A DNA stretch of 64,000 bases from a virus: positions 99,303-163,302 of IMG/VR virus record IMGVR_UViG_3300031576_000004, one strand, 5' to 3'. The notes beneath the pieces were generated by a model, which saw nothing but the letters and a program-made list of their open reading frames with translations, was not told the DNA's origin and did not search any database. The translations under genes and the position numbers were made by a program. Below, piece by piece: positions 4,952 to 41,121 of this stretch. Positions within the stretch are counted from its first letter, which is position 1, and each line of letters opens with the position of its first letter.

Positions 4952-4978
4952 ATAAACAAAAAGGAGGTGATATACTAG

Positions 4979-5050: not shown

Positions 5051-5058
5051 GGTGACAC

Positions 5059-5256
5059 ATGGACCTACTCGCGTACTTGATTCTTCTCTATTGTTGCGTA
5101 GGCGCATACAAAGGGGTCATCGCATCTATTCACGGATTACCAATCCTAAATAGAGATTGCGATGGCAGTCCAGACTTTGAAGACAAAACATGGTTTTTCG
5201 CAACAGTTATGTTTCTAGATATATTTCTTTGGCCACTTCATGAGAGGGGGGGGTAA
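5059..5256 (+). CDS. small protein with two hydrophobic segments
   Basis: RBS GAGGTG; two predicted TM stretches. Confidence 0.65.
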   Translation: MDLLAYLILLYCCVGAYKGVIASIHGLPILNRDCDGSPDFEDKTWFFATVMFLDIFLWPLHERGG

Positions 5257-5680
5257 TGGTGACGTGAGAGTACAACAATCATTTGGGACTGCCTTTGCAA
5301 GCATTCCTGCATTCCAAGAACTGAAAAGGAAGCAGGAAGAGTTCACCAAAGACAGCATCAAAAAGGAACAAGCGGCTGCCCTGGCGCATGTCGAATCCAT
5401 GCGTCAGGAGCGGCTCTCAAAAAAGAACGCAGCTCTTCACAGAGTTCGCGTAGCTTCTATCGACCAGAATATCGAGAACATCAATCCAAACAACTCAACC
5501 GCTCTAGACAACGCGGCAAATCACCTCCTAAGAAGGGGTAGCGTTTGGATCCATGAAGGCTATATCGGCTCCAATCGGGAGCAGATTGCCTTCGAGCTTG
5601 AGATGCAGCTTGTCGGGGTATTGCTCGATGAGCACGAGCTCGAAAACAGAATGAAGCTCCGCTGTGAAGCGGAATTCTAG
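5240..5680 (+). CDS. hypothetical coiled-coil protein
   Basis: ORF in operon; start uncertain. Confidence 0.65.
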   Translation: MRGGGNGDVRVQQSFGTAFASIPAFQELKRKQEEFTKDSIKKEQAAALAHVESMRQERLSKKNAALHRVRVASIDQNIENINPNNSTALDNAANHLLRRGSVWIHEGYIGSNREQIAFELEMQLVGVLLDEHELENRMKLRCEAEF

Positions 5681-5692
5681 TTAGGCGTTGGA

Positions 5693-5732
5693 CAGAGGGA
5701 GTTTTGGCCGGCAACGGCCGAGACTCCCTCTG
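5693..5732 (+). terminator. 18-bp GCAA-loop hairpin between convergent genes
   Basis: CAGAGGGAGTTTTGGCCG-GCAA-CGGCCGAGACTCCCTCTG; no adjacent U-tract. Confidence 0.6.
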
Positions 5733-5756
5733 CGGGCCGAGGCATTTATTTAGCTA

Positions 5757-6119
5757 TTAAAGTATTTGAGTCTTAGCCTTCTCTAGAGATACCCAGGATC
5801 TACGCGCCTCAAAGTGGTTCTTTAGGGTCTCGTAATGCGTCCTGGCTCCAAGTTCAGCCCCAACAGCATCTGCATACACCTTTATATATTCGCCATACTC
5901 TTTAGAGGCTAAAGCCTCTCTCTCTATCCTGGACTCTGTGACCTTCGTCCCAGTGGTCTCGTAGGTGGCCGAAATCGTGTTCATAAGCTTCGCTAGCATG
6001 GTCTTCCGACCTTCCTCTAGCCTGGTAGACAATTGCTTCACCTTGGCCCATTCCTGACCCGCCTTCTCCTGCTCAGCGATGATGTCTTCCAGGAACCTAA
6101 GGTCTATTTCGACTTCCAT
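5757..6119 (-). CDS. helical phage protein, possibly UvsY-like
   Basis: 120-aa all-helical ORF; family resemblance judged by eye only. Confidence 0.55.
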   Translation of the reverse strand: MEVEIDLRFLEDIIAEQEKAGQEWAKVKQLSTRLEEGRKTMLAKLMNTISATYETTGTKVTESRIEREALASKEYGEYIKVYADAVGAELGARTHYETLKNHFEARRSWVSLEKAKTQIL

Positions 6120-7329: not shown

Positions 7330-7608
7330 TTAAGCCGTCTTCTTGAGCCACTTCATGTTCGCGTTAACTGAGCCCGGATGGAACGTGTGGTTACCTTCCG
7401 TGTAAGTCTTCAGCTTGGCTTTAGCCGCGACACCTGTGAGTAGCGTCTTGCTTGCAGCAATCAATGTAGTTATCTGAGTCGCATCGAAATCACCACGGAC
7501 AACTCCAAGAGCGCCAGCAAGATTCTTTCTAACGACGCGATAATTAGGGGCTGTGCTTACATTAACGTCCGGCGTGTCTCCCGAAAATGCAAGTTCTACG
7601 TAGAGCAT
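7330..7608 (-). CDS. small LamG-associated protein (paralog of 11070-11327)
   Basis: GDTPDV.VS.APNY...GDFDA.QI..LIAA.KTLLT shared. Confidence 0.8.
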   Translation of the reverse strand: MLYVELAFSGDTPDVNVSTAPNYRVVRKNLAGALGVVRGDFDATQITTLIAASKTLLTGVAAKAKLKTYTEGNHTFHPGSVNANMKWLKKTA

Positions 7609-7633
7609 TATTTAAACTCCTTTAGTTTTGAGC

Positions 7634-9880
7634 TTACTCTTCTCTAACCATATGGATGTTATCAGTATGCATGACACCGTTACCAGTGCCAGCCCTCGTA
7701 AACTCCTGGCGATAGCTCAGGTCATCCGTGGACTTGAGGACTACGATCCTAGTAGCCACGAACACGTTATCCACGTAGAGATCCTGGATGCCAGTAAGCG
7801 GCTGGTGATCAACATGGACCTTGTGCTGGCCTGTGGAGAGGATGATAGGATCAGGCGACCACCCACGAATACCACGAATAGCCGTTACCACATAGGTGAA
7901 TCCGTTCACCAAAGTACCAAACTGAGTATCCGGATTCGTCACACGCACGTTTACGGGACCAACCCCTTGAGCTGGTGTATCACAGAAAATCGTATTTCCA
8001 TCACCAAAGACGACATTGTCTGCCGGTGTGCTTCCGAAAAGAACTGTGCACCCAGACTGGAAATTACCAGGGTTACCATAGATCGTAACAGAAGTTCCTC
8101 CTGCTGTATCTCCAGTGTTCGGCACAACAAGCTGTGGATTAGGAGCCGGGAATGTATAAGTATAACCGTTAACAAGAGTCCCAGACTGCCCGTCAGAGTT
8201 GGTGACAACTACGTTTACCTGACCAGCCGCATGTAGAGGAGCATCGCAGGTTAGCGACCCCTCATTGAGAACCACCACATTTGTCGCAGGTGTTCCACCA
8301 AAGGAAACAGTTGGGGTCGTAAACGTCTGGAAGAATCCAGTCGGGGAATTGATAATAACCCCGAAGTGGAAGTGAGTACCATTAAGCGTTACAGGAGTAC
8401 CGCCAGAGTTTATACCTGTAGCGGGGAATGCAACCGTGACGGTGGGTGCAGCATGGTAAGCAAACACATTGGACGGAGCATTACTACCCTGACCATCTGG
8501 ATTCTGAACGAACAGGTTTACCAGACCGTCAGAGGTTGTTCCGCCTGGGCTCGGCGGCATAACCCCGGTCAGAGTCGTCGAGCTTTGAAATACTAAGCTC
8601 TGGACGTTAACCCCGTTTACTGTCGCAAAGCAACCAGACTGGAATCCGGTACCAGAAATCGTGACAGCCGTTCCGCCGACAGATGGCCCGTAGGCTGGCG
8701 AAATTGGAGCTGGGGTGTTTACCGTCGGAGCCGCATTATAAGTGTAACCGTTAATAAGCGAACCAAACTGGCTGTCTGGATTTGCTACGTTTATGGTAGC
8801 CAAACCAGATGCGTGAGCTGGCATGTTGCAAGTTATTGTGTTTGCATCCACGACGACCACGTTCGTCGCCTCTGTCCCAGGGGGCGCGAAGAATGGCTCG
8901 TCTGCGCCAATCGCAGGGGAAGACAAGCGAACATCGCCATCCATATCCTCTGTCAAACCAGCAATAGCCACACCAGCACCTATAGCTGGAGATCCTGCCA
9001 TCAAGTGCGGATTAGCAAAGCTAGTCAGCAAAGGATCCGCTGTAAACGAATTAGCTTCCTTACCTACTGCCTGGAAATCTGCAAGTGTCACATAGGCAGT
9101 TGGAGGGTCTACGTTGTGGAAGAGTTTAGCATATTGAAGAACTGGAATATTAAAAGTCAAGTTATTGGAAGCACTAAAGTTATCTGCAAGTCCAGTAGGA
9201 GTATTAGCAGAAAGAACATATATAGCGCGGTGACTAGAGTTAGAAACGATAGTGTGATAGATATTGTCCTTAAACATAGTCTTCCAAGCGTTCTCAACGC
9301 TTGAGCTTAGAACGCCAGCATAGTTCCTGACCGTGTTGCCGAAGGCTTTGAAGTTCAATACCGACACGAACGCAACGTCGCCCTCAGAAACGACCCTAGG
9401 ACGGATATAGCAGTTCCTGACTATGATTGGCTCTGTGTTAAAGTCTACACCTTCCATCGCATAGAACGCATAATGCCCGCCGTTAGTCACTACCTCCATC
9501 TGCTCGAAGATAACGTGTCTTAATAGATTAAACCCGCCCTGGAAGGAAGGAAGGGACGGATTACAGTTCTTAGTATTGAACCACTTAATTGTGACCCTGG
9601 CCGTGGAAGAGCCAATGACTCCTATGCCATTGACATTCTGGCCATCAAGAATAGAACGATTGGCATTGCTTTGCCCTCGAACTGTAAGCCTGAAAGCACC
9701 GGTATTAATTCCACCAAAAAACATAACTTCAACATTAGAGCCTGCCTGAGAAAACGTCTCACCACCGTTACAAACGATTTCCCAGTCCTCAGTGAATGGG
9801 GTGTGGTTCAGAACCAAATCAGCGATAGCTGCCTGAATGGTTGTGAACGGCTTATCTGAACCTACCAGCGACATTCCCAT
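7634..9880 (-). CDS. beta-helix (pectin-lyase-like) + half IPT + three IPT/TIG domains + 82-aa C-terminal module
   Basis: TTIQAAI start, beta-helix ending SPAIGAG..DGD.R...IGADE; IPT repeats P.SG...GGT.VTI.G..F...VTNPDGQ. Confidence 0.88.
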   Translation of the reverse strand: MGMSLVGSDKPFTTIQAAIADLVLNHTPFTEDWEIVCNGGETFSQAGSNVEVMFFGGINTGAFRLTVRGQSNANRSILDGQNVNGIGVIGSSTARVTIKWFNTKNCNPSLPSFQGGFNLLRHVIFEQMEVVTNGGHYAFYAMEGVDFNTEPIIVRNCYIRPRVVSEGDVAFVSVLNFKAFGNTVRNYAGVLSSSVENAWKTMFKDNIYHTIVSNSSHRAIYVLSANTPTGLADNFSASNNLTFNIPVLQYAKLFHNVDPPTAYVTLADFQAVGKEANSFTADPLLTSFANPHLMAGSPAIGAGVAIAGLTEDMDGDVRLSSPAIGADEPFFAPPGTEATNVVVVDANTITCNMPAHASGLATINVANPDSQFGSLINGYTYNAAPTVNTPAPISPAYGPSVGGTAVTISGTGFQSGCFATVNGVNVQSLVFQSSTTLTGVMPPSPGGTTSDGLVNLFVQNPDGQGSNAPSNVFAYHAAPTVTVAFPATGINSGGTPVTLNGTHFHFGVIINSPTGFFQTFTTPTVSFGGTPATNVVVLNEGSLTCDAPLHAAGQVNVVVTNSDGQSGTLVNGYTYTFPAPNPQLVVPNTGDTAGGTSVTIYGNPGNFQSGCTVLFGSTPADNVVFGDGNTIFCDTPAQGVGPVNVRVTNPDTQFGTLVNGFTYVVTAIRGIRGWSPDPIILSTGQHKVHVDHQPLTGIQDLYVDNVFVATRIVVLKSTDDLSYRQEFTRAGTGNGVMHTDNIHMVREE

Positions 9881-11338: not shown

Positions 11339-11962
11339 CTAGGAAGGTGACCCGTCAGAGATGACCAATGCAGCTCCGAATCCGGCAGGAGCGGAGCCGA
11401 CGGAGACCACCAACTCCACACCACTCGGAGCAGCGGGAATGTTGATATTGGTCCCGAACTCCACCCTCTTGATAACGGATTGCTTGATAGCCGTGCACTG
11501 ATGCTCCCAGGAAACCTGAGAGCCAAGGGCAGCGTTGAGAGTAGCCTTGAGAGACTTGGCCCCAATAGCCGTGGTGCCGCCGTCAGAGGCGACGACCAGC
11601 GTCCCGCCCGCAGTGTCCATCGCATTGGCAAACCCGGCCTGGAGAGGAGTCTGACCGACGGTTGCAGTCTCCATATCCACCAGACCAGTTGTCACGTTGT
11701 GCGTTTCGATTGGGTACTGAGGGAACGTCTCGTGACGGGCAACGCCACCGTTGCCATTAATGGCAGCCTGAGCATTCGCAATGCCCTGAGATGTCGTGTT
11801 TGCTGGAAGGTTTACTTCAACAGCGACCAGCTTTCCGTTGACGTCACGGATAATAGTGGAAGCGTTGTTTGGGTGCGCAGCATTAACAGCATTTTGGATC
11901 GCGGTCAGCGTTAAATCGCTTGCCTGAGCCCCAGGATCACAGATTATATTAATCTTCGGCAT
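11339..11962 (-). CDS. anchor domain plus C-terminally truncated beta-sandwich (paralog of 12139-13038)
   Basis: AAHPN..IRDVNGK...VNLP N-domain shared; stops about 90 aa earlier than the paralog. Confidence 0.85.
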   Translation of the reverse strand: MPKINIICDPGAQASDLTLTAIQNAVNAAHPNNASTIIRDVNGKLVAVEVNLPANTTSQGIANAQAAINGNGGVARHETFPQYPIETHNVTTGLVDMETATVGQTPLQAGFANAMDTAGGTLVVASDGGTTAIGAKSLKATLNAALGSQVSWEHQCTAIKQSVIKRVEFGTNINIPAAPSGVELVVSVGSAPAGFGAALVISDGSPS

Positions 11963-11982
11963 TGTCTACTCCCCTTTCTTTT

Positions 11983-12017
11983 AAAGAAAATGTGGGCGAT
12001 GTCAATATCGCCCACAT
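11983..12017 (-). terminator. intrinsic terminator
   Basis: ATGTGGGCGAT-6nt-ATCGCCCACAT hairpin followed on the minus strand by TTTCTTT. Confidence 0.7.
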
Positions 12018-12138
12018 ACTTAACACACTATTTATGTAATGTTGTGTAGTTATTGTTTGTCTTTGCATTTTATAATACGTTTATTACAAGTTCCGGCCGA
12101 GCCATGAACGCGTCTCCTAAATTCTGGCTAACTGCAGC

Positions 12139-28679: not shown

Positions 28680-29897
28680 ATGCCAGATTTCGAAATAGAT
28701 CTTAATAAAGCCGCAACCGCTGTTAAGGATCCGCCGGTTGAGGCTAAAGAGCCTAAGGGGGTTGTCGCGAAGCTTCGTCTGATCGAGGATGAGCTCAAGG
28801 GGTTCTTCATCGAAAGAAACGAAGTTATCCACGGGGCAATTCTTGCACACGTTGCCAAAGAACACATTCTCATGCTCGGCCCTCCAGGCTGCGCAAAATC
28901 CGATATCGCAGAAAGCCTTTCAGCGGCTTTCAACGGGTCGAAACTTTTCTACTACCTGATGACCAGGTTCACAACGCCAGAGGAAATTTTCGGCCAGCTT
29001 TCTGTTAGGGCTTTGGAACAAGATCGCTTTAACAGAGTGACTGTCGGAAGGCTTCCAGAAGCCAGCGACGTCGTTCTCGATGAGATCTTTAAGTCATCCT
29101 CGTCCATCTTGAACTCGCTCCTAATGGCTATCAACGAGCGTAAGTTCTTCAACGACGGAGTCATGACAAAGCTTCCTTTGCACACTGTCACTGGGACCTC
29201 AAACGAGCTTCCTGAATCGAAGGAGCTCGACGCCCTCTACGACAGGTTTATGCTCAGGTATAATGTCGGCTATATCCGCGAGACATCGGGTCTCAAGCGG
29301 TTGCTGATGGCTCCTGACCATAAATTCAAGACAACTGTCGATTACTCCGAAATCACCAAGGCTCACGAAGAAGCCATGCAGATTCCAGTTCCTGAGGAGT
29401 CTGCAGACATGCTCACAAGGATCGCCTTGAACCTGCGCGAAGAAGGCATCTTCGTATCGGACAGGCGCATCCGTAATTGTCAGCACGTCATTAAGGCTGA
29501 GGCCTTCCTTAGCGGAAAGACAAAGGTTGACGAGGAGTCCATCGAGATCATCCAGCATTGCATGTGGAATGATCCGAAGGAAATTTCAAAGACACGAAGC
29601 GTTATCCTTGGTGTGGCGAACCCTCTTGCTCAACAGGCTCTCGAGAAGTACGAGATGGCCCTTGAGATCAAGAATAACGTCTACGCTATCAAGGAAGATG
29701 ACAAGCGCAAGAAAGCAACCCTTGAGGCCAACGGCAAAATCAAAAAGTTACACGTTGACCTTAAAAAGATTGTCGAGGAAATGAAGGCCAAGGGAAAGCC
29801 GGCTGCTCGGTATGAGGAGATGCAAAACAGGATTACTGTAATGCATAGTGAGATGCTTATGGAATGCCTCGGGATCGATCAGAAGACCTTGGCTTAA
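28680..29897 (+). CDS. MoxR/RavA-family AAA+ ATPase
   Basis: Walker A GPPGCAKS, FTTPEEIFG, Walker B LDEIFK, SNELP, ALYDRF, SDRR. Confidence 0.92.
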   Translation: MPDFEIDLNKAATAVKDPPVEAKEPKGVVAKLRLIEDELKGFFIERNEVIHGAILAHVAKEHILMLGPPGCAKSDIAESLSAAFNGSKLFYYLMTRFTTPEEIFGQLSVRALEQDRFNRVTVGRLPEASDVVLDEIFKSSSSILNSLLMAINERKFFNDGVMTKLPLHTVTGTSNELPESKELDALYDRFMLRYNVGYIRETSGLKRLLMAPDHKFKTTVDYSEITKAHEEAMQIPVPEESADMLTRIALNLREEGIFVSDRRIRNCQHVIKAEAFLSGKTKVDEESIEIIQHCMWNDPKEISKTRSVILGVANPLAQQALEKYEMALEIKNNVYAIKEDDKRKKATLEANGKIKKLHVDLKKIVEEMKAKGKPAARYEEMQNRITVMHSEMLMECLGIDQKTLA

Positions 29898-29951
29898 AAC
29901 CCTATAATCCGTGTGCCAGGCAATCCGGCCTGGCACACGAGGAAAAGGACG

Positions 29952-30275
29952 ATGCCTGAAATAATAAAGGTGCACGTAGAACAAAATTCTATAACTGGTT
30001 GGTATGAGGTTCACAGCCATGGAATGGATAAGCTTGGTCAGCCGGAGATCAGAATAGAGACTCCGGCGTTATTTGTTAAGGCAGCAGCCAACCTTTTAAA
30101 AGACATCGCCATACACTTCAAAGACAACCCAGAGAAGAAGCTCAAGCCAGGGGAGTCTATAGCGCTTGAGATCAATAACAATTGCGAGGTTACTGCCAGG
30201 GTTACCGTAGACCCAGAAAACAAAAACAGGCTTCTAATCTATGGGGAGGATGTTGATTGGGTGAAAATGTGTTAG
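29952..30275 (+). CDS. hypothetical protein (HSHGM..LGQPEI motif)
   Basis: RBS AAGGA before ATG 29952. Confidence 0.65.
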   Translation: MPEIIKVHVEQNSITGWYEVHSHGMDKLGQPEIRIETPALFVKAAANLLKDIAIHFKDNPEKKLKPGESIALEINNNCEVTARVTVDPENKNRLLIYGEDVDWVKMC

Positions 30276-31285
30276 CCGACAACTGGAAAGACTGTGTTAT
30301 TGAGGGCGCGAAGGAAACAATACAAGCGGCCAAAGAAGAGTTTGAAAAATGCGACGCAAAGATAAAAGAGACCGTTAAATCTGAACTAGCCGCCAGCAAC
30401 GAAGAGATCAGCGAGATGAGCGAGGAGATAATCCGCGAACACGGCTGGGCCAAAACTGGTCTTGAGAATGCCATTAATAACCACGAAAAGGTGGATCATC
30501 TAATAAAGAAATTCGATGCTGCCGGAAGGCGATTCGAATTCATTGATGAGCCTCATATGGATGGCTTCTATAACGGGTCTTGGGGAAGGCAATACCCAAG
30601 GATCTCGAGGACGCTTTGCGTCTTTGACAAAAAGGGAACGGCTAAGGCATGGTACAAAGTTCATAGCGCACCAACAGACGGCATTGAAAACGGCTGGCAC
30701 TCGATGAATATCATTAAGAGGAGCAGCTCCTATTGGAGAGTGCCGCCTATTATGCGGAAAGCATTTAGTGCCGCCGCGAAATTACACTTAGCAATGCTTC
30801 CATATGAGGTAAGCCTAAAAACTGCTTACGGGATGATCGGAGAGCACATCGGATATAGGGATAGAATCATGCGCTTCAAAAGAGTTACATATGGCGTTGC
30901 GTATGGTTTCAATCCTGCGTCTGGAGATTCCATCGGCATTGCCTATGGCCTGGCCAACCTAAAGAACAACGCGAGCATAGAAATTACAGGACCTGTCTGG
31001 CACATTGATAATAGACTTTGGGTAAATAATCAAAACGTTGCCGATGGTTCTGGAGAGGAAAAGCGGAAGTGTGGCGGGATCATACAGTTCTATTCATTTC
31101 GCGAGGGGTCGTTGACATCGGCGTATCAAAAGCGTCCGCTGGTCTACACAGACATCGCAAAGAATGAATTGACGAGCAAGATGAAGTCTCCGATCCAGGA
31201 GGCTAGCTATGATTGGCTCAGTCTCCCAAAGGATCAAATCAAAAGGAGAATAAGTGCGATTCGAGAAATACGCAGTAAAAAATGA
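30257..31285 (+). CDS. hypothetical protein, N-terminal coiled coil
   Basis: Long ORF in operon; start uncertain. Confidence 0.7.
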   Translation: MGENVLADNWKDCVIEGAKETIQAAKEEFEKCDAKIKETVKSELAASNEEISEMSEEIIREHGWAKTGLENAINNHEKVDHLIKKFDAAGRRFEFIDEPHMDGFYNGSWGRQYPRISRTLCVFDKKGTAKAWYKVHSAPTDGIENGWHSMNIIKRSSSYWRVPPIMRKAFSAAAKLHLAMLPYEVSLKTAYGMIGEHIGYRDRIMRFKRVTYGVAYGFNPASGDSIGIAYGLANLKNNASIEITGPVWHIDNRLWVNNQNVADGSGEEKRKCGGIIQFYSFREGSLTSAYQKRPLVYTDIAKNELTSKMKSPIQEASYDWLSLPKDQIKRRISAIREIRSKK

Positions 31286-32612
31286 CAGCTTCGACCGGAA
31301 AGCCTTTCAGGACATCCGGAAGAACTCTGAGAGTCTAAAGGGTCAATTTGATAGGAATGCAGAGAAGCTTCCAACGTTTGACACGCTCCAACAGGACGTG
31401 TACTCGGCTCTATACAAATATGAGCCAGAATTAGAAAGCGAACGTCGCTTAGATCCTAAGAATAGGGTCCATCTCGATCTAATTAAAAGCATGATGGAGA
31501 TGAAGGAATATAAGGACCTCAGAGGCCAAACGCTACTGGATGAGTTTGCGTCTGCTCTTGCAACCGATGCTATTGCTGAAAAGATCCTGGAATACCTGCC
31601 TCCGAAGGAGGAAGAGGAACAGGAAGGCGATGGCGATGGAGACGGCAAGGGCAAGAAGAAGAGAAAGAAGCCTAACCCAGACGACATAAAGAACGCCATT
31701 AAAAGTGGCCTTAACGACGCAAAATCATCTGTTAACGAAGCGAATGACTGTCTTGCTGGCTGGGGTCTTGAAAAGGGCCAGCTTCACAAGACAGGCTACA
31801 AAGAGAAGGTCCAGCTCGCCCAAAAGATCATGGGCAGCCACAAGCTGAAGGAGCTCGCGAAGATCGCCGGACGGTTCCGCAGGCTAGCCTTGTCTACGCA
31901 AAAGACAAAGGTTACCCGCGGATGCGATGAGATATTCGAGCTCGAGCGCGGAGATAGCCTTGAGCGCGTGCTGCCTCAAGAACTGGCTAACCTGTGCCAC
32001 CCAGTAAGGAAGTTTGATTTCTACAGACGCTTCACTGAGAAAGATCTGATGCAATATCAGGTTAGAGGCAAGATCAAGGAAGCCAAGGGACCAATCATTA
32101 TCGCAATGGACGAATCTGGCTCTATGAGCGGTGAAAGAGAAATCTGGGCAAAGGCTGTCGGACTAGCCCTAATGGAAATCGCCGTATCACAAAAGAGAAC
32201 CTTCGGATGGGTCCATTTCGGATCCTCAGAAGAGATTAAGACCCACGTCTTCAAACACCAAGACGGGCGTCCAGATATCGAACAGATGATTGAGATGGCA
32301 GAGTTCTTCTTTGGTGGAGGAACCGACTTCGAGTCCCCCCTCACAGAGTGCAGGAAAATCATTGATGGCGATCTGCCAAAAGCAGATGTTGTATTCGTCA
32401 CCGACGGCGAATGCGGCGTTAACGATGAGTTCCTTGAGACATTTAAAAAATGGAAGCAAACAAGCGGGGTTAACGTATACGGAGTCCTTATGGGGACCTA
32501 CGGAGACGAACAGCACCCGACAATGGATCAATTCTGCGACACCGTAATAGACGTGGCTGCATTAGAGGATCGCGGGGGCGATCACGCAGTGAACGTCTTC
32601 CAGCAGATCTAA
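31254..32612 (+). CDS. vWA-domain protein (ViaA-like partner of the MoxR ATPase)
   Basis: MIDAS DESGSM, GGGTDF, TDG. Confidence 0.92.
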   Translation: MRFEKYAVKNDSFDRKAFQDIRKNSESLKGQFDRNAEKLPTFDTLQQDVYSALYKYEPELESERRLDPKNRVHLDLIKSMMEMKEYKDLRGQTLLDEFASALATDAIAEKILEYLPPKEEEEQEGDGDGDGKGKKKRKKPNPDDIKNAIKSGLNDAKSSVNEANDCLAGWGLEKGQLHKTGYKEKVQLAQKIMGSHKLKELAKIAGRFRRLALSTQKTKVTRGCDEIFELERGDSLERVLPQELANLCHPVRKFDFYRRFTEKDLMQYQVRGKIKEAKGPIIIAMDESGSMSGEREIWAKAVGLALMEIAVSQKRTFGWVHFGSSEEIKTHVFKHQDGRPDIEQMIEMAEFFFGGGTDFESPLTECRKIIDGDLPKADVVFVTDGECGVNDEFLETFKKWKQTSGVNVYGVLMGTYGDEQHPTMDQFCDTVIDVAALEDRGGDHAVNVFQQI

Positions 32613-33902: not shown

Positions 33903-34455
33903 CCCAAAGATCGCCATCGGGCCAAAGCTTCTGGAGCATTATTCTCACATTATCCAGTCAAAGTTCTCTGAGTTCTCTGAAAGACTTAGCGTTGTCACAG
34001 CAAAGCATCGGCTAGTTATCGAGGACGAATTAAAGAAGAAACTTGGTTTTGATAAGGTTAAGGATGCGGCTTCAGCCCTTAACCTTGAAGTCGCAAAGAT
34101 AAACGACAAGATCGTTGCTCTTGAATCTGAAAGGAACGCTAAGGTAAGAAAGTTCCTGTCCGAGCCGAGAGGAAACGATTACGTCGCAATCAAACGGGAA
34201 GATCGAGATTCATACCTAGTCGACGTCGAAACAACGTCTTCATTTGAAGAACTTGTTAATAAGCGCGTTGAGACTGAGGGACCAACAATCAGCGCATCTG
34301 TGCTTAAAAAGCTACAAAAAGACGCCGATGTATGTGTAGCACTCTCCCTGAGTCAGACTGAAGCCGTTGAAACAATTAACAAATTTGACGCAGAGTGCAA
34401 TGAGATTGTTCAATCTGCAAATAAGGAAATCCTTAATGCAAACAGCTCAAGCTAA
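33883..34455 (+). CDS. hypothetical coiled-coil protein
   Basis: ORF in operon. Confidence 0.7.
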   Translation: MKQMPNNPKIAIGPKLLEHYSHIIQSKFSEFSERLSVVTAKHRLVIEDELKKKLGFDKVKDAASALNLEVAKINDKIVALESERNAKVRKFLSEPRGNDYVAIKREDRDSYLVDVETTSSFEELVNKRVETEGPTISASVLKKLQKDADVCVALSLSQTEAVETINKFDAECNEIVQSANKEILNANSSS

Positions 34456-35530
34456 GGCACCTAATCCTTTAGCATCTGTAACCCTTGGAAGCGGGGTTGT
34501 TCCTGTAGTTGAGTTCAATAGGCTCATGGCAGATAGGGCAAAACACTTCGCCGACAAGACTGTGAAGGCCGGAAACCTAATGATGGATAATCAGGGCAAT
34601 ATTGTTCAGGATACTGGCAACGCCCAGGATAGGCCAACGTACCCACTCCAGAAGCACGCTTTAATGCTTCTCGGCGCAAGGCTTGGCATCGGATCCTATA
34701 TTTCAAAATGCCCAGCTGAACCAGAAGAGATTGTCACATCAGACGCCAAAATCACCGCATCGCTCAGAGCGATTAACGTGAATTACTGGCTAAAGAAAAG
34801 GAGCCACAAAGAGCTCCTTATGCGTCTCGACGCTATCTCAGGACAACCAGAAATCAGAGCTGTTCTGTCAAAGCAATATTCCCCAATTGGGAATGACGAG
34901 GTATCCAGAGAACTAACAACTGTTCCTGGAGCGTCCGATCTCTCAGTTCGGTTTGAGTGGACACCTATGTACCTATACGCACATATCATCAGTGATAAGT
35001 GCAAGATGACAACTCCAAATGGAGAGGTTATTCAAGGAGCAATCCACCTTCGCAATAGCGAGGTTGGTCTTTCCAAGATCGTTTTGGAGAGCATGGTCAT
35101 GAAGGAAGCGGCTCCAACTGGGGCCATTCTTCGTGAGTGGAGCGGATTTAATAAGGTCCACAAAATGGATCGCGGAGACCTGTTCAGGGCTTTCAGGGAA
35201 AGTGTCCCTCAGATATTCTCGAATATGAGCGGGGCTCTCCAGAAATACGCCGATCTACAGAAGATCGGTGTTAATGATCCTAATGGCCTTCTTGAGACCA
35301 TTGGGAATGAGCGGGCAAATATGTTCAACGAGGACCAAAAGGAGGCTATTAAAACAGCCTGCAGTCAAGAAGGGGAATTAAAGACGATGTGGAATATCGT
35401 CAATGTTCTCACTCGGGCGGCTGGAGATCAGACACTTCCCCCAATGGACAGGGAGAAGCTGATGAAGTCCGGCGGAAAGATAGTCTACGACATCCGCAAT
35501 TATGGCGTGTGGACTAGACAACAGATTTAA
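34436..35530 (+). CDS. DUF932-like phage/plasmid protein
   Basis: RAVLS..Y, LRNSEVG.S and TMW.IVN.LT patterns; start at ATG 34436. Confidence 0.7.
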   Translation: MQTAQAKAPNPLASVTLGSGVVPVVEFNRLMADRAKHFADKTVKAGNLMMDNQGNIVQDTGNAQDRPTYPLQKHALMLLGARLGIGSYISKCPAEPEEIVTSDAKITASLRAINVNYWLKKRSHKELLMRLDAISGQPEIRAVLSKQYSPIGNDEVSRELTTVPGASDLSVRFEWTPMYLYAHIISDKCKMTTPNGEVIQGAIHLRNSEVGLSKIVLESMVMKEAAPTGAILREWSGFNKVHKMDRGDLFRAFRESVPQIFSNMSGALQKYADLQKIGVNDPNGLLETIGNERANMFNEDQKEAIKTACSQEGELKTMWNIVNVLTRAAGDQTLPPMDREKLMKSGGKIVYDIRNYGVWTRQQI

Positions 35531-35566
35531 ATAGAGTGATTAAATTCAAGTCCGAAAGGAGCCATT

Positions 35567-36355
35567 ATGGGATCCATAAGATTCCAAGTTAGACTATTGG
35601 CCGAAGACGGAGCGGTGCTAAAGGAATTTGAGCGCGTCTTTGCTCCAAAGGCAATCGACAAAAGGTTCAGTGTAGAAGGCAATAGCCCGATGGACCTTTT
35701 CGAAAAGGTTAAAGAAGCCCTGGCCGCCGCAAGAGAAAAGCAGAACGGACTTAATCTTGCGTGCGCTGTTGCAGATAGGCTTGCAGCATCAGCAATTGAG
35801 GGCGAGCGCTACAAGATCTGGTGTGCCCTTGGAAAGAACCCAGATGAATATGCTGCGTGGACAAAGGAAAACCCAATCCCCATCATCGATGAGGCTTCTC
35901 TTGAAAAGACAGATCTTCCTGTTCTCCAGAGGGTCGGCCCTCCAATCGCTGGGGTTGAACTCGTAGACCCACCAAAGAAGCGCAGAGGACGTCCGGCAAA
36001 GATCAAGACAGAAGAGACGCCTTCAGAAGATCCGGTTCCTGCAGAGGCGACACCACAGGCAGAACCAATCAAGAAGCGCAGAGGTAGACCGCCTAAGAAT
36101 CCAGTTCCTCAGACTGAGCCGGCAGCGGAGCCGGTTAAGAAGCGCCGTGGACGCCCACCGAAGAATCCAGTTCCTGAGGCCGCTGCCGAAGAGCCGGTTA
36201 AGAAGAAGAGGGGTCGCCCACGCAAAAACCCGCTTCCAGAAGGTCAGGCAGAGCCCGCAAAGCGTGGCCCTGGAAGACCGAGGAAGAACCCACTTCCTGC
36301 CACGGAAGAGCCTGTAAAGCGCAAAAGGGGAAGGCCTCGCAAGAACCCAGTATAG
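35567..36355 (+). CDS. multi-AT-hook (HMGA-like) DNA-binding protein
   Basis: Six GRP[APR]K AT-hooks in ~20-aa tandem units. Confidence 0.85.
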   Translation: MGSIRFQVRLLAEDGAVLKEFERVFAPKAIDKRFSVEGNSPMDLFEKVKEALAAAREKQNGLNLACAVADRLAASAIEGERYKIWCALGKNPDEYAAWTKENPIPIIDEASLEKTDLPVLQRVGPPIAGVELVDPPKKRRGRPAKIKTEETPSEDPVPAEATPQAEPIKKRRGRPPKNPVPQTEPAAEPVKKRRGRPPKNPVPEAAAEEPVKKKRGRPRKNPLPEGQAEPAKRGPGRPRKNPLPATEEPVKRKRGRPRKNPV

Positions 36356-36361
36356 GCCTTA

Positions 36362-36378
36362 TTTTCCGGTATAAGAGT
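36362..36378 (+). promoter_or_regulatory. class B promoter motif TTTT-CC-GGTATAAGAGT
   Basis: Third copy of the motif. Confidence 0.68.
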
Positions 36379-36454
36379 ATAGAGGCAAGTGAATAATCTT
36401 ACCTCTCCGGTTTGCCGACCGGCTCTTAACCCTTTTTCAAAAGGAGATGCCACA

Positions 36455-37021
36455 ATGAAAAACTACATGATCGCATTGCTTGCCGCCCTCGCTCTGGTTG
36501 GCTGCGGGACGAAGGCTCAGCCTGTGCCGCCTTCTCCCCTCGAGCAGTTCAACTCTGATCTGATCAAGCGAAACGACGAGTTGGTAAGGCAAATCACCAA
36601 GGCTCAAACGGAAGAGCGTGAAGGGAAAATCACTCCCGCCGTTTACGCTTCCACGGTCGTCCGGCTTGCCGAGACGATGAAGGAAACGAACGCTTCCAAC
36701 GCGATCGCGAAGACCGCTCTGGAGCATGCCGATGAGGATGCTATCCAGAAAGGACTGAAGCCAAGGCCTGCGCCTGAGATGACTCAGGAGCAAAAGGAAC
36801 TGATGCTCGCAAAGCTTCAGCTCAAAATCGCCGAGGTCAAGGCAAGGGAAGCTCAGGCCGAGCGTCCCACGATCATCGAAAGGGTGATCGAAAAGGTTCT
36901 CGTTGTTCCTGCCCCGAAGACCGAAGTCAGGGTCCTCACCGCTGATGCCGGAAGGCCGCAGTGGGAGAGGGTCACCTTGGACGAGTGCAACTGGACTGTG
37001 TATCACGAGCGCACGAAGTGA
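36455..37021 (+). CDS. lipoprotein, coiled-coil
   Basis: MKNYMIALLAALALVGC signal with lipobox; RBS AAGGAG. Confidence 0.8.
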   Translation: MKNYMIALLAALALVGCGTKAQPVPPSPLEQFNSDLIKRNDELVRQITKAQTEEREGKITPAVYASTVVRLAETMKETNASNAIAKTALEHADEDAIQKGLKPRPAPEMTQEQKELMLAKLQLKIAEVKAREAQAERPTIIERVIEKVLVVPAPKTEVRVLTADAGRPQWERVTLDECNWTVYHERTK

Positions 37022-37042
37022 GATCGATTCTTCGGTTTCACA

Positions 37043-37080
37043 GGGAGGATGGGGCGGCAACCCCATCCTCCCGTTCTTTT
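37043..37080 (+). terminator. intrinsic terminator
   Basis: GGGAGGATGGGG-CGGCAA-CCCCATCCTCCC-GTTCTTTT. Confidence 0.85.
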
Positions 37081-37089
37081 AGGATACAA

Positions 37090-37344
37090 ATGAACACAGT
37101 TGATTTAACATCACAACTTAAGAACGCAAGAGCCTCGGTGGACGAGGCCAAGAGAAAACTAGCAGATATTGCCATGAATGGCGCTAGTGATGAAGACATC
37201 TTCATCCAGAAATGCGCCTATGAAAACTCGGTAGAGCTTGTGAACACTCTTACAGAACGGATTGTAGCAATCCTAAATAACAGGAGTAATAGTGACTCAA
37301 CCGTATTACCTGACAATCCAGGGAAAGAAGAAAACGAAGGCTGA
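37090..37344 (+). CDS. 84-aa helical protein upstream of and overlapping the RT
   Basis: RBS AGGA, ATG 37090. Confidence 0.65.
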   Translation: MNTVDLTSQLKNARASVDEAKRKLADIAMNGASDEDIFIQKCAYENSVELVNTLTERIVAILNNRSNSDSTVLPDNPGKEENEG

Positions 37345-38677
37345 ATTTTTTATCTCGAAGGGTAAGCCATCCTGGCTTAACTTCAAACTCCCCGTTGTGA
37401 TCGATGGGGTCACCTATCCTGTGATCTGTTTGGCTTGCAGCAATAGATTTTCCTGCTCTGCTTTGCCGCAGAACTGGAGATCGAGAATGAGCATCGGGAA
37501 GCCTATCCATAAGGATTCCGAGTGCTTCCATTTCAACGTTGCTGATATCTGCAGAAGCTGTTCTTTCACATCCAGCTGCTACAAGCCAACCAGGTCAAAG
37601 TGCATCGCTAGCGGAGGCCCACAGCTAGATGCTCTTCCTAATAGCACTCCAAGAGATGCCACATCCATTAAGGATGGTCGGGAACTCGCCTACAGTATCA
37701 AGACGAAATACAGGGTTATCACGTGGCTCTTAAAGCGCGTGTGCGATCGTGATTCTTCTCTTTATCACACATTCGCGATTAAGAAGCGCGGTCGCAGTGG
37801 CAAGATGAGAACCATTACGGCTCCAGATAAGTATCTCAAGGAAATTCAAAAGAAGATCCTTAAAAATGTTCTCTACCAGTTCCAACCGTTGGACTGTGTG
37901 ACGGCGTTTGTGCCTGGGAAGAATGTCATCAAAAATGCAGCCCAGCACATGGCCGCCACTCCAGGAAGCGTTGATATTAAGGACTTCTTCGATACGATAT
38001 CGTCTCAGCGGGTATATGGACTATTCCGATCGATCGGGTTTAATAAGCGCGTATCTGGAATTATGACTGCGCTTATGACATGGGATGGGAAGGTTCCTCA
38101 GGGAGCTCCAACCAGCCCGTGGATTGCAAACGCCATATTCCACAGAGGGGACAAGAAGATCCTGTCTGCTGCTGGTAAGCTTGGCTTCTCATATACACGA
38201 TACGCCGATGACATTACCTATTCACAGCTTAGCGGATTCTCTAAGGGGAAGAATATCGCCTTCACAGAAATCGTGAAGCGAATCGTAGAGGAAGAGGGTT
38301 TCAAGCCTAACGACGACAAGACAAAGGTTGCCACCAATTACGTTACCGGTCTTAGCGTTTCGGGTGACAAGCCAAACATCCCATACGACAAATTCCACGA
38401 AGTCAGGCAGAGCATTCATAAGGCGTATTGGAACGGGATCGCCTCAGAGGCTTCCTACAACAATGCTCCGGTTGGCTTGTTCACGCAGAGAATCAATGGG
38501 GTACTCCAGTGGTTCACGCAGGTAAACCCTAGCCGTCCTGGGTTATCCAAGATGGTTGAAAAGTGGGAGCTCGCAAAGAAAGGTATAAGACCAAGTGCGA
38601 ACCAATCTAACCAAAGTGGCGCTGGATGCGCACCTCAAGTCGTTGGCGCTGGCACAGGCAACGCTCAAACGAATTGA
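37292..38677 (+). CDS. retron-type reverse transcriptase with Cys-rich N-terminal extension
   Basis: RTITAP, NAAQH (NAxxH), DIKDFFDTI, PQGAPTSP, YTRYADD (YADD at 38201-38212), VTG. Confidence 0.93.
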   Translation: MTQPYYLTIQGKKKTKAEFFISKGKPSWLNFKLPVVIDGVTYPVICLACSNRFSCSALPQNWRSRMSIGKPIHKDSECFHFNVADICRSCSFTSSCYKPTRSKCIASGGPQLDALPNSTPRDATSIKDGRELAYSIKTKYRVITWLLKRVCDRDSSLYHTFAIKKRGRSGKMRTITAPDKYLKEIQKKILKNVLYQFQPLDCVTAFVPGKNVIKNAAQHMAATPGSVDIKDFFDTISSQRVYGLFRSIGFNKRVSGIMTALMTWDGKVPQGAPTSPWIANAIFHRGDKKILSAAGKLGFSYTRYADDITYSQLSGFSKGKNIAFTEIVKRIVEEEGFKPNDDKTKVATNYVTGLSVSGDKPNIPYDKFHEVRQSIHKAYWNGIASEASYNNAPVGLFTQRINGVLQWFTQVNPSRPGLSKMVEKWELAKKGIRPSANQSNQSGAGCAPQVVGAGTGNAQTN

Positions 38678-38876
38678 TGAATCCATCAAGAATGGCAACA
38701 GCGAGGAAACCATTCTTATGTCTAGAGAGGGAACTCTCAAACACATCGCATCAGCTACAGATAAAATCCAACAGCTGGGATCTCACCGCCGAAGCGACTT
38801 TGTAGTTAAGTCGTGCAAGGTGGCACATATGAAACCGGCCATGCACCAGTCGCTTCTGAAGAGAAGCGCAAAATAA
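38595..38876 (+). CDS. 93-aa helical protein overlapping the RT 3' end
   Basis: ORF with 83-nt overlap; start uncertain. Confidence 0.55.
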   Translation: MRTNLTKVALDAHLKSLALAQATLKRIDESIKNGNSEETILMSREGTLKHIASATDKIQQLGSHRRSDFVVKSCKVAHMKPAMHQSLLKRSAK

Positions 38877-38957
38877 AAAGGAGGTGACTATGTACGACTA
38901 TGGTTGATCTTCAGGGACTTAACAGGATAAAACCAGTTAACCCTGAAAGGATAAAAA

Positions 38958-39110
38958 ATGGAAGACAAAGCTACTTCCATATTTCTCGAAGAGACAGCGA
39001 AAATAAACGTGGCAAGATCCATTGAAAATGGACTGCCTATGGCCGCTGCCTGTGTCGCAATTTTTCTTCTTGTAGATCTTGCGGCAAATATTTGCACAGA
39101 TAACAATTAA
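38958..39110 (+). CDS. 50-aa protein with hydrophobic C-terminal helix
   Basis: Hand-translated MEDKATSIF...ACVAIFLLVDLAANICTDNN; RBS AAAGGA. Confidence 0.5.
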   Translation: MEDKATSIFLEETAKINVARSIENGLPMAAACVAIFLLVDLAANICTDNN

Positions 39111-39120
39111 CTACATCTGT

Positions 39121-39165
39121 GAGGGGAAACAGTCACCAGCAAGGTGATTGTTTCCCTTCTTTTTT
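39121..39165 (+). terminator. intrinsic terminator closing the RT module
   Basis: 17-bp stem, AGCAA loop, T6. Confidence 0.88.
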
Positions 39166-39167
39166 AG

Positions 39168-40412
39168 CTATGAAAGAAGCAGGTAGTCTAGAGACGTTGT
39201 TGCAGGAACTGTACCGTGAATGACCTGACCCGCGCCTTTAATCTCTATGGTGACTTCAAGTCCATGCTTGATATCTATCGAGAACTCTCCAAATGCATTC
39301 GTTTGGGCTCTGGCGATTTCAGTGATGGTCTTATTGGTGTATGTTCTCGTGCTGTCTGTATGAAGCACTATAACGGACATTCCAACCGCGGGCTTCCCGC
39401 TCTTCTCTAGGATTCGCCCAAACACACGACACGTGCTGGCAACGTCTGGGGCTTCAGAAGATACAACCTTATCTATTACAAGGAACTCAAATGTATCTGT
39501 CGTTATGTCTAGCCCAACGGTTGACTCGTAGACATATTCCCATGTGCCAAGAACATCAACCTCAGCTATTGGAAACGAGTATGTGAACACGCCAGCAGAA
39601 GCAGGAAGAACAGTCGCTGGAGATCCTAGTTTTTCGAACCCATTAGTATCTAAGACAGACAGCAGTTTGACTGTGGTTGGATTAAACAGAACCCCTGATT
39701 GATTCCTGTACGTAACCGTCAGATCTACCGATTCACCCCTGACAGCCCTAAGCGATGGGTCTGCGCTGGCACTGGAAAGCGTGTTCAAATTGAAATGCGG
39801 AGATTCGGCCTTCTGGAATTCAGAATCCAAGAACTGTGGGCTCATCCTTACACGGGCTGAATACGTCAATGCCTGCGAATCGTCTGCAGCAGCATCCCAC
39901 ACAAAATTAGCTGTCTGCCCCGTCGGACTAGAAGAAATCGCAGACATTGAATCATGCGCAGGATCGCTTGTCCTGAATGCCATCGGTCTTGCGTCCTCAA
40001 ATGTGCCGCTAAGTGAATATTCAGCGCCAACGACGCTTACGATATCGCTCTCATCGTCGTAGATGATGATCGGGATGTCTACAAGTCTAGACCCGTCTAT
40101 CCTCTGGATCGGCTGATTCACTCTTATCCTTGGTGGCCTTGTATAGAACACAGTCCCAAGGACAGCTATTTCTGACTCATTATCGTATTTGTCTTTAAAC
40201 TGTGTATATATCGTCTTCAGTCCGGTAGTGTTGTTCCCACCGAACAAGAACAGATCCCAGTCATATCTCCTGAACTCAAGCGACTCGTAAGGAGAAAATG
40301 TGAGCCCATCGTTTGAAAAGTGCATCTTAGCCGTTGGCTCAAAATCAGCCACAACGGTCAAGTCGACTAGGTGGCTCCTGGTCGCCTTTACTGGGAACGT
40401 TACGCTAGACAT
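39168..40412 (-). CDS. multi-Ig-like virion protein (paralog of 45030-46352)
   Basis: FSNDG.TFSPYE, WDL..FGG, SG.LFNPT.V shared. Confidence 0.8.
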   Translation of the reverse strand: MSSVTFPVKATRSHLVDLTVVADFEPTAKMHFSNDGLTFSPYESLEFRRYDWDLFLFGGNNTTGLKTIYTQFKDKYDNESEIAVLGTVFYTRPPRIRVNQPIQRIDGSRLVDIPIIIYDDESDIVSVVGAEYSLSGTFEDARPMAFRTSDPAHDSMSAISSSPTGQTANFVWDAAADDSQALTYSARVRMSPQFLDSEFQKAESPHFNLNTLSSASADPSLRAVRGESVDLTVTYRNQSGVLFNPTTVKLLSVLDTNGFEKLGSPATVLPASAGVFTYSFPIAEVDVLGTWEYVYESTVGLDITTDTFEFLVIDKVVSSEAPDVASTCRVFGRILEKSGKPAVGMSVIVLHTDSTRTYTNKTITEIARAQTNAFGEFSIDIKHGLEVTIEIKGAGQVIHGTVPATTSLDYLLLS

Positions 40413-41121
40413 CTAGCTCACCAAATGTGTTCTTATTGCCATCTCCGAAGTTAACTCCACCAAACCTTAGTCTTGGCGGCTTAAGGTCTATAGTCTCTCT
40501 GCCGATTATAATGTTAGTGTCGTCTGTCCCGTCATTGGCCATTAGCCTGAAATAGATGTCTGTGGGCTCTGTTGGGTTGAAGTCTTCCTGGATGTCCCAC
40601 ATGAACTTGAACGTCGCTCCTGTGGGCGTAAAATCAAGGCCTACGACCCCGCTGTGATCTGGTGACAGGACAAGAGGGGTCATTGTCTCCTGCTCTCCAG
40701 CAAAAGCCCCTGTAAGGCTCCATTCATATATAGTTAAATCATTTAGGTCCCCAACTCCTTCAAAGCCCTTATAAATTATCTTTAGGGACTTCTTGCTTAC
40801 GCTTACGACCTGCTGAGCGCTGAGCAATAACATCCCGTTTGTAATCGTCGTGAAAGTTGCAATTCCGTTGAAGAGCGGCTCAACACTGCCTATAGCCGAA
40901 ATCCCGCTTATAATTGGCGCTGCAGATCCGACAGATGAAATGCCGTCTATTAGTGGGACAGCTGATCCAACTGCAGATATACCAAGGACTGTGGGGACGT
41001 CAGACCCGACTGCAGATATCCCCAAAACCTTTGGGGTGTCTATTGGCGTTAGCAGAAGCAGACCATCAACCTTCGGGGCGTCTGGCGGCGTTAAAAGAGC
41101 GATCCCTCCGCCGGTCGTCAT
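40405..41121 (-). CDS. virion protein with 13-aa P..GIS.VGS repeats and Ig-like domain
   Basis: Repeats visible; SLTGAFAGE shared with 45030-46352. Confidence 0.75.
   Translation of the reverse strand: MTTGGGIALLTPPDAPKVDGLLLLTPIDTPKVLGISAVGSDVPTVLGISAVGSAVPLIDGISSVGSAAPIISGISAIGSVEPLFNGIATFTTITNGMLLLSAQQVVSVSKKSLKIIYKGFEGVGDLNDLTIYEWSLTGAFAGEQETMTPLVLSPDHSGVVGLDFTPTGATFKFMWDIQEDFNPTEPTDIYFRLMANDGTDDTNIIIGRETIDLKPPRLRFGGVNFGDGNKNTFGELDV

What the first reader, a model, noticed from the sequence alone, without database searches (positions are those of the whole stretch)
37090..39165. Phage retron-type RT module with Cys-rich N-domain and no canonical msr-msd or effector
Seen: an intact RT (YADD, plus NAxxH and VTG, the retron region X/Y signatures) lies between two strong terminators (37043, 39121) with three small ORFs, two overlapping it by 53 and 83 nt. 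There is no non-coding gap upstream where retron msr-msd normally sits, no recognisable toxic effector, no DGR template/variable repeat pair and no group II intron ends. Established: retrons are RT+ncRNA+effector anti-phage systems. Inference: an unclassified phage-borne RT system, possibly anti-defence, superinfection competition or cDNA-mediated editing, using an overlapping, downstream or trans-encoded template.
Basis: partly seen in the sequence, partly recalled or inferred. Interest (0 to 1): 0.8.

Follow-up and report, generated by a model that had tools for sequence, protein, structure and literature searches.

The report
Phage retron enzyme with remote template array
A large uncultured phage carries an intact retron-type reverse transcriptase with a novel cysteine-rich front domain and no template RNA beside it, but the same genome holds a tandem array of eleven retron-like template RNAs about 128 kb away, which would be an unusual one-enzyme, many-templates retron if confirmed.

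Summary
Window 37292-38677 encodes an intact retron-family RT (YADD, NAxxH and VTG present). It lies between two strong terminators, alongside three small ORFs that all look coding. No msr-msd RNA lies in the module.

The RT belongs to a small clade of about 10 members. All members with a complete N-terminus share an N-terminal 8-Cys domain found nowhere else among 1.84 billion proteins. The nearest defence model is retron type XIII, but the type XIII partner genes are absent.

Two IMG/VR phages keep the same order: RT, a helical ORF, then a small membrane ORF whose ribosome site is buried in a hairpin. In those two phages, retron-like RNA units (a1-G...G-a2) lie directly upstream of the RT.

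In this phage such units lie elsewhere, outside the window. There are ten back-to-back units at genome 8385-9901 and one at 11929-12053, behind a phage promoter motif. Their stems covary, and a covariance model finds exactly these 11 units in 163 kb.

Best reading (about 0.5): a phage retron whose templates are encoded in trans as an array. The link between the RT and the array, cDNA synthesis and the biological role are all inferred. Another first-stage note (e1-5742560) had seen the hairpin region without linking it to the RT.

The parts
37043..37072 (+). intrinsic terminator-like hairpin closing the upstream lipoprotein gene; 5' border of the module
   Evidence: 12 pairs, 9 G-C, T-rich tail
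37090..37344 (+). ORF1, 84-aa helical protein; overlaps the RT start by 53 nt
   Evidence: Codon-usage score is 0.22 in frame against -0.03 and -0.20 out of frame. It shows weak similarity to ORF2 and to the N-terminus of the 244-aa protein upstream of the RT in L001.
37292..38677 (+). Retron-family reverse transcriptase, 461 aa; the last ~30 aa are a read-through tail that overlaps ORF2. NOTE: its candidate templates lie OUTSIDE the window and cannot be listed as parts. They are ten back-to-back units at genome G000:C1:8385-9901 (locus L247:1386-2902) and an eleventh at 11929-12053 (L247:4930-5054), + strand. The window is genome 99303-163302.
   Evidence: RT: RVT_1 1.5e-17. PADLOC RT_III-A 219 bits, RT_XIII 218 bits. 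NCBIfam retron_St85_RT 189 bits against group II 41 and Drt2 34. The closest solved structure by sequence is the retron Ec86 RT, 193 bits. Motifs are invariant in the clade. Array. 94% of cells are paired against 66% in shuffles; 11 of 13 pairs show compensatory changes; model R1 scores 43-99 bits; there are no other hits in the genome; GGTATAAG lies 111 nt upstream.
37427..37603 (+). N-terminal 8-Cys domain: two Cx2Cx5C motifs plus two further Cys (C46, C49, C55, C78, C87, C90, C96, C104)
   Evidence: All eight Cys are invariant in window/L001/L002. There is no Pfam hit at E<=10. Among 1.84 billion representatives it is found only in this RT clade. The AlphaFold model of this part is unusable, pLDDT about 30.
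38582..38589 (+). GGTATAAG, the phage's strand-specific promoter-like motif; lies inside the RT 3' end just before ORF2
   Evidence: 15 copies on the + strand and 0 on the - strand of the 163-kb genome (about 2.5 expected per strand)
38595..38876 (+). ORF2, 93-aa helical hairpin with a basic tail; conserved position after the RT
   Evidence: Syntenic ORFs occur in L001 (7173-7529) and L002 (7152-7436). L001 against L002 gives E 1e-4. The Atlas model is a helical hairpin.
38880..38978 (+). 99-nt imperfect hairpin. It pairs a perfect SD (with a 5-codon leader ORF at 38891-38908) and also the SD and AUG of ORF3
   Evidence: the region folds with z -6.5; pairing was read from the MFE structure. 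Analogous SD-occluding hairpins occur in L001 and L002.
38958..39110 (+). ORF3, 50-aa protein with one hydrophobic helix; candidate membrane effector
   Evidence: Codon-usage score 0.25. Small single-helix ORFs occupy the same place in L001 (7578-7766) and L002 (about 7490-7696).
39121..39159 (+). intrinsic terminator-like hairpin; 3' border of the module, facing the convergent fibre gene
   Evidence: 17 pairs, T6 tail

Best explanation
This is a retron-family system carried as a stable part of a lineage of large phages.

The enzyme is a catalytically intact retron-type RT. It is fused to a clade-specific 8-Cys N-terminal domain that probably binds metal. It is followed by a helical ORF and a small membrane ORF whose translation start is locked in a hairpin.

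In this phage the template RNAs are not next to the RT. Eleven msr-msd-like units form an array about 128 kb away (genome 8385-9901 and 11929-12053) and are transcribed from a phage promoter motif.

Inferred mechanism:
- The RT recognises the conserved NAG-triloop hairpin and the a1/a2 duplex of each unit.
- It primes from the 2'-OH of the G that follows a1.
- It copies the long variable hairpin, giving up to eleven different msDNA species.
- The RT-msDNA complexes then control ORF2 and/or the membrane protein ORF3, or act directly as nucleic-acid decoys. The purpose would be conflict with host defences or with rival phages.

Shown: the family of the RT, its conservation and synteny, and the existence, structure and uniqueness of the array.

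Inferred: that the array is the RT's template set, that cDNA is made, and the role.
For: RT family:
- Retron models outscore group II and DRT models by more than 140 bits.
- NAxxH, VTG and YADD are invariant.

Clade and inheritance:
- The clade of 10 is monophyletic.
- RT identity to L001/L002 is 35-37%. That is higher than for the flanking DUF932-like protein (24-32%) and the fibre protein (26-28%), so the RT has been inherited with the phage backbone.

Units in the relatives:
- L001 has a 292-nt unit with a perfect 12-bp a1/a2 stem and opposed Gs in the gap before its RT (z -4.1).
- L002 has two units with the same a1/a2 sequence. The a2 of the second overlaps the RT start codon.

Control: in 111 other retron RT loci, a1-G...G-a2 pairs of 11 bp or more occur upstream on the RT strand in 29 loci. 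They occur downstream in 5 and on the opposite strand in 8. Planctomycetota loci L100, L102 and L114 share one such unit next to the RT.

Own genome:
- 11 units, with covariation in the a1/a2 stem and in the independent P1 hairpin.
- An invariant U follows the 5' G.
- Model R1 hits only these 11 units.
- The ORF lying inside the array has no coding signal.
- The genome has only one RT.
- There is no R1-like unit near the RT.

ORF3: its SD is occluded by a hairpin in all three phages.
Against: - The link between the RT and the array rests on architecture and on the relatives, not on co-occurrence statistics.
- The units were found by requiring a1/a2 complementarity, so that helix's inner 7 pairs are partly circular evidence.
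- Model R1 does not hit the L001/L002 units, so homology between them is structural only.
- The generic a1/a2 scan has a high background at 9 bp.
- The array sits 128 kb from the RT, or at least 34 kb if the genome is circularly permuted.
- ORF3 of the window is not detectably homologous to the ORF3 of L001/L002.
- A terminator separates the RT from the nearest upstream promoter motif.
Confidence: 0.5

Rival explanations
1. The RT uses a template inside its own module, and the distant array is an unrelated family of phage small RNAs. The cis candidates are the 99-nt hairpin between ORF2 and ORF3 (38880-38978) and a structure embedded in coding sequence, such as the 180-nt fold at 37422-37598.
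For: Region 38820-39090 is strongly structured (z -4.6 to -4.9 without the terminator). The fold at 37422-37598 has z -3.3, with 0 of 200 shuffles as stable. Four of the five TTGGCTTG copies in the window lie in the RT gene as mutually complementary elements.
Against: The 99-nt hairpin is explained more simply as translational occlusion of ORF3, and the same design occurs in L001 and L002, where there is no intergenic gap. The embedded fold is not conserved in L001 or L002. None of these candidates has the a1-G...G-a2 plus triloop architecture.
Confidence: 0.2
2. The RT works without a dedicated structured template, for instance by protein-primed or untemplated synthesis as in AbiK, DRT4 or DRT9. 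In that case the Cys-rich domain would serve as primer or sensor.
For: There is no cis ncRNA in the window. The RT has a novel N-terminal domain of unknown role.
Against: The RT keeps the retron-specific NAxxH and VTG motifs. It scores far below every DRT/UG cut-off; for example Drt2 scores 34 bits against a cut-off of 390. The relatives have retron-like units abutting the RT.
Confidence: 0.1
3. The module is an ordinary accessory gene cassette ('moron'): a defence retron picked up from the host. Its ncRNA has been lost, so the RT is an orphan on the way to decay.
For: It is bracketed by terminators between convergent operons. The window RT sits on the longest branch of its clade (1.11) and scores lowest against retron models.
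Against: The ORF is intact and every catalytic motif is present. The same position and the same neighbours occur in phages whose backbone proteins are only 24-32% identical. No close relative was found among 185,579 prokaryote species genomes.
Confidence: 0.08
4. It is a diversity-generating retroelement or a group II intron RT.
For: It is phage-borne and lies next to fibre genes.
Against: There is no template/variable repeat pair anywhere in the genome. No intron RNA was found by Rfam. The group II RT model scores 41 bits against a cut-off of 300.
Confidence: 0.02

Closest known systems
Bacterial retrons in general (e.g. Ec86/Eco1: RT + msr-msd + effector)
   Same: RT family and its hallmark motifs. 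The candidate RNA units have the canonical layout: terminal inverted repeats with two opposed Gs, a short hairpin, then a long hairpin. An accessory gene or genes follow the RT.
   Different: The host is a large phage with no integrase found. The RT carries a novel 8-Cys N-domain. There are eleven templates in a tandem array far from the RT rather than one template next to it. The accessory genes are small and unlike known effectors.
Retron type XIII (RT clade 10 of Mestre et al. 2020, PMC7736814)
   Same: RT_XIII is the best PADLOC model for the other clade members (312-326 bits; next best about 280). The clade groups with XIII-like RTs from Planctomycetota.
   Different: Scores are well below those of true members of other types against their own models (400-420 bits). 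The defining WH-SWIM and HEAT/ARM partner genes are absent. The N-terminal region does not match the XIII model.
Retrons with membrane or small-protein effectors (type IV Ec48 with a 2TM protein; type VI with a small toxin, bioRxiv 10.64898/2026.04.27.721009)
   Same: A small hydrophobic protein is encoded next to the RT as a plausible toxic output.
   Different: There is no sequence match to those accessory proteins. ORF3 has a single helix, an occluded ribosome site and a 5-codon leader ORF. Toxicity is untested.
Retrons in P2-like prophages and P4-like satellites (PMC9122126)
   Same: Retron RTs carried by phage genomes.
   Different: Those sit in variable hotspots of temperate elements, carry standard effectors and have a cis ncRNA. 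Here the RT is inherited with the backbone of a large phage lineage.
Engineered multiplexed retron arrays for genome editing (PMC10450171)
   Same: One RT serves several msd templates.
   Different: Those are synthetic. No natural array was found in the literature searches.

Membership tests
Retron (broad sense) | RT of the retron clade with the NAxxH and VTG regions and YxDD | tested here: met
Retron (broad sense) | msr-msd ncRNA with a1/a2 repeats and a priming G, encoded next to the RT | tested here: not met
   None is found in window 35000-40500, and ORF1 fills the upstream space. Units with this architecture exist in trans at genome 8385-12053 and in cis in L001 and L002.
Retron (broad sense) | production of branched msDNA | not testable with these tools
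   needs expression and nucleic-acid analysis
Retron (broad sense) | co-encoded effector controlled by RT-msDNA | tested here: inconclusive
   ORF2 and ORF3 are syntenic in three phages, but they match no known effector.
Retron type XIII | RT falls in clade 10 / matches the RT_XIII model as a member | tested here: inconclusive
   For the window RT, RT_XIII (218 bits) is not even the top model. Clade mates score 312-326 bits with RT_XIII as the best model. The clade is separate in the tree.
Retron type XIII | WH-SWIM (DEDE) protein and HEAT/ARM partner | tested here: not met
   The neighbouring genes give no PADLOC hit. No SWIM domain scores above cut-off in the 163-kb genome.
Diversity-generating retroelement | template/variable repeat pair with adenine-specific differences | tested here: not met
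Group II intron | intron RNA domains and a maturase-type RT | tested here: not met
DRT/UG and Abi reverse transcriptases | membership of those RT clades | tested here: not met
   Drt2 34 bits, Drt3a 25 bits, far below their cut-offs

The most novel reading that the evidence does not exclude
A large, apparently non-integrating phage lineage runs a one-enzyme, many-template retron. A single Cys-domain RT would convert an array of eleven different msr-msd RNAs into a set of msDNAs. These would serve as decoys against host nucleic-acid-sensing defences or as sensors and weapons against rival phages. The small occluded membrane protein would be the output.
Probability: 0.4. Interest if true: 0.9.

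Novelty: new variant of a known kind. Interest (0 to 1): 0.78.

Why it matters
Retrons are known as single-template bacterial defence systems.

A retron RT that is a stable backbone gene of a large phage lineage would extend that picture in three ways. It has a new metal-binding-type domain. Its templates can be separated from the enzyme. The templates are multiplied into an array.

This would show that phages use retron chemistry for their own ends. It would also give a natural precedent for multiplexed retron templates, which is of direct interest for retron-based genome editing. Finally, it would mean that retron searches which require a template next to the RT miss real systems.

Tried and rejected
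The contigs of the seven database clade members (P0002-P0007, P0121; one cluster includes KKN17331.1 from a marine sediment metagenome) could not be read.
- Scans of genome contigs and metagenome contigs gave no further Cys-domain RT. A scan with the N-domain alone found only L001 and L002.
- The AlphaFold model from the 7-sequence alignment was too poor to use (pLDDT 51 overall, about 30 in the N-domain), so no fold search was run.
- The ESM Atlas gave nothing for the N-domain and only generic helical hairpins for ORF2.
- No conserved sequence block was found between the upstream or downstream regions of the three loci, apart from a small GC hairpin shared by L001 and L002.
- L003 turned out to be an ordinary P2/P4-type retron, not a clade member.
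- Model R1 found nothing in about 280 other loci.
- A motif scan of IMG/VR for unit junctions returned only single chance matches.
- The interiors of the units match nothing else in the genome or in GenBank phages, so a guide or donor role is not indicated.
- Counting generic a1/a2 pairs per 2 kb does not discriminate at 9 bp, because the background is high.
It is described under the RT part instead.

Full report
**What is in the window**

The + strand ORF 37292-38677 starts at a GTG behind AGGAG and encodes 461 aa.
- Pfam finds only RVT_1.
- Retron RT models score 150-219 bits in PADLOC.
- NCBIfam gives retron_St85_RT 189 bits, against group II RT 41 and Drt2 34.
- A profile of the clade matches the solved retron Ec86, Ec67 and Kva2 RTs best.
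- YADD (304-307), NAxxH (215-219) and VTG (351-353) are present and invariant in the clade.

Terminator-like hairpins lie at 37043-37072 and 39121-39159.

A codon-usage test trained on 59 long ORFs of the same genome gives:
- ORF1 0.22, ORF3 0.25, ORF2 0.08-0.13;
- real genes 0.25 on average (sd 0.09);
- out-of-frame 95th percentile 0.005.

All three small ORFs therefore look translated, and there is no free space for an ncRNA upstream of the RT. Rfam finds nothing.

**The RT clade**

Database searches find a tight group at 36-40% identity. The members with a complete N-terminus share the N-terminal extension (P0002-P0007, P0121). Two IMG/VR phage contigs, L001 and L002, belong to it as well.

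The extension holds eight invariant cysteines: two Cx2Cx5C motifs plus two more.
- It has no Pfam match even at E 10.
- In a profile search of 1.84 billion representatives it recurs only in this clade.
- The structure model was unusable.

A tree of 73 retron RTs makes the ten Cys-domain RTs one group (SH-aLRT 92). The window's RT is the earliest and longest branch. The group sits among RTs whose best PADLOC model is RT_XIII. Clade mates score 312-326 bits on RT_XIII, whereas true type III-A or II-A members score 400-420 bits on their own models.

The defining type XIII partners (WH-SWIM, ARM) are absent (PMC7736814). No close relative exists in one genome for each of 185,579 prokaryote species. 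Clade members sit on contigs of up to 188 kb, and one comes from a marine sediment metagenome.

**Synteny**

The window, L001 and L002 share this gene order:
1. a DUF932-like gene;
2. a variable stretch;
3. the RT;
4. an overlapping helical ORF of about 95-118 aa;
5. a small single-helix membrane ORF;
6. a convergent fibre-like gene.

The RT is 35-37% identical between the window and the two relatives. The flanking backbone proteins are only 24-32% identical. The RT has therefore travelled with this phage lineage under selection.

The 163-kb record (88% complete) shows no integrase or resolvase.

In all three phages the ribosome-binding site of the membrane ORF is paired into a hairpin. In the window this is a 99-nt hairpin (38880-38978). 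It also pairs a perfect SD that serves a 5-codon leader ORF. This design is typical of tightly held, possibly toxic, small proteins; that reading is my inference.

**Where the template is**

L001 and L002 have ORF-free gaps of 0.7 and 1.5 kb before the RT. I scanned for the retron signature, meaning an inverted repeat whose inner ends each abut a G.
- L001 has a 292-nt unit with a perfect 12-bp closing stem (5138-5429, z -4.1).
- L002 has two units with the same closing sequence (5376-5520, z -6.2; 5712-5879).
- The a2 of the second L002 unit overlaps the RT start codon.
- Each unit has a short GC triloop hairpin and a long hairpin.

As a control, in 111 other retron RT loci such pairs of 11 bp or more lie upstream on the RT strand in 29 loci. 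They lie downstream in 5 and on the opposite strand in 8. Three Planctomycetota loci share one clear unit next to the RT.

The same scan over the window's whole genome gave a cluster on the + strand. There are ten units back to back at genome 8385-9901 and one at 11929-12053. The window is genome 99303-163302.

Each unit is built in this order:
1. a1, 7-13 nt, variable in sequence;
2. a G, then an invariant U;
3. a 5-8 bp hairpin with an NAG triloop and a G-C closing pair;
4. a long hairpin whose sequence is unique to the unit;
5. a G, then a2.

On an alignment anchored at the two Gs:
- 94% of cells pair, against 66% in shuffles and 20-44% with partners slid;
- 11 of 13 pairs show compensatory changes;
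- the a1/a2 inner pairs were a search criterion, but the triloop hairpin and the invariant U were not.

A covariance model (R1) scores the units at 43-99 bits. It finds nothing else in the 163 kb and nothing near the RT with filters off (best 7 bits). The one ORF lying in the array has no coding signal.

The motif GGTATAAG occurs 15 times on the + strand and never on the - strand. One copy lies 111 nt before the first unit. Others lie before the operons of the window and inside the RT 3' end just before ORF2. The genome has a single RT.

**Reading**

The simplest account is that the clade's ancestral layout was template(s) followed by the RT, as in L001 and L002. In this phage the templates would then have been multiplied and now sit elsewhere. 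One RT would serve eleven templates in trans.

This is an inference from architecture and from two relatives. R1 does not recognise the L001/L002 units, and only three loci could be read. Nothing here shows cDNA synthesis.

The unit interiors match nothing else in the genome or in GenBank phages, so there is no sign of a guide or donor function.

The role is open. It could be defence against rival phages, decoys against host sensors, or control of ORF2/ORF3. That fits a phage which invests in conflict systems.

**Literature**

Searches found no paper on natural retron template arrays or on this RT clade. Only engineered arrays turned up (PMC10450171).

**Verdict**

- It is a new variant of a known kind.
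- Interest is high and hinges on one clean experiment.

Noticed in passing
G000:C1:8385-9901 and 11929-12053 (locus L247:1386-2902 and 4930-5054), outside the window: The eleven-unit array of a1-G...G-a2 RNAs that this report proposes as the RT's templates. It is listed here because parts must lie inside the window. Unit boundaries in L247 coordinates are 1386-1531, 1540-1683, 1682-1837, 1840-1979, 1986-2103, 2107-2259, 2260-2434, 2444-2633, 2641-2781, 2782-2902 and 4930-5054.
   Followed up: yes
window 37430, 37582, 38368, 38472: TTGGCTTG occurs five times in 64 kb, and four of the copies lie inside the RT gene in the orientation +, -, -, +. The first and third copies, and the second and fourth, are perfect 11-nt complements. 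The first pair closes a 180-nt fold (z -3.3). That fold lies where this RT has a 12-aa insertion relative to its clade. The arrangement is not conserved in L001 or L002.
   Followed up: partly
L002:4858-5380: Nine copies of GGAAAGGTAGGC, each followed by a different hairpin. They run directly into the two a1-G...G-a2 units before the RT. They could be promoters, processing sites or further template units.
   Followed up: partly
whole genome G000; window copies at 27894, 36368, 38582: GGTATAAG is strictly strand-specific (15 on +, 0 on -) and sits before transcription units. It is probably this phage's promoter element.
   Followed up: partly
L247:2913-3293 (genome 9912-10292): A MazG-like NTP pyrophosphohydrolase gene (PRA-PH, 4e-12) directly follows the RNA array.
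   Followed up: no
L100:5376-5527, L102:5305-5463, L114:5347-5496: Three Planctomycetota MAG loci share a clear retron ncRNA just before their RT. Its a1 is GTGGGAGAGATTT followed by G, and the closing stem is 13-18 bp.
   Followed up: no
window 28680-32612: The operon that ends with the RT module begins with a MoxR-type AAA+ ATPase and a VWA protein. It also contains a DUF932-like protein (34367-35530) and a six-AT-hook protein.
   Followed up: no
window 37090-37344; L001:4391-5125; L002:3654-4418: ORF1 resembles ORF2, and also the N-termini of the roughly 250-aa proteins that precede the RT gap in L001 and L002. All have a helix, a Gly/Asn-x-Ser/Asp-Glu turn, then a second helix. The similarity is weak (E about 0.01).
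   Followed up: partly
array units u1, u2, u3, u9 (genome 8385-8836, 9640-9780): Four of the eleven long hairpins carry GAGUAC in their apical loop, although their stems are unrelated.
   Followed up: no
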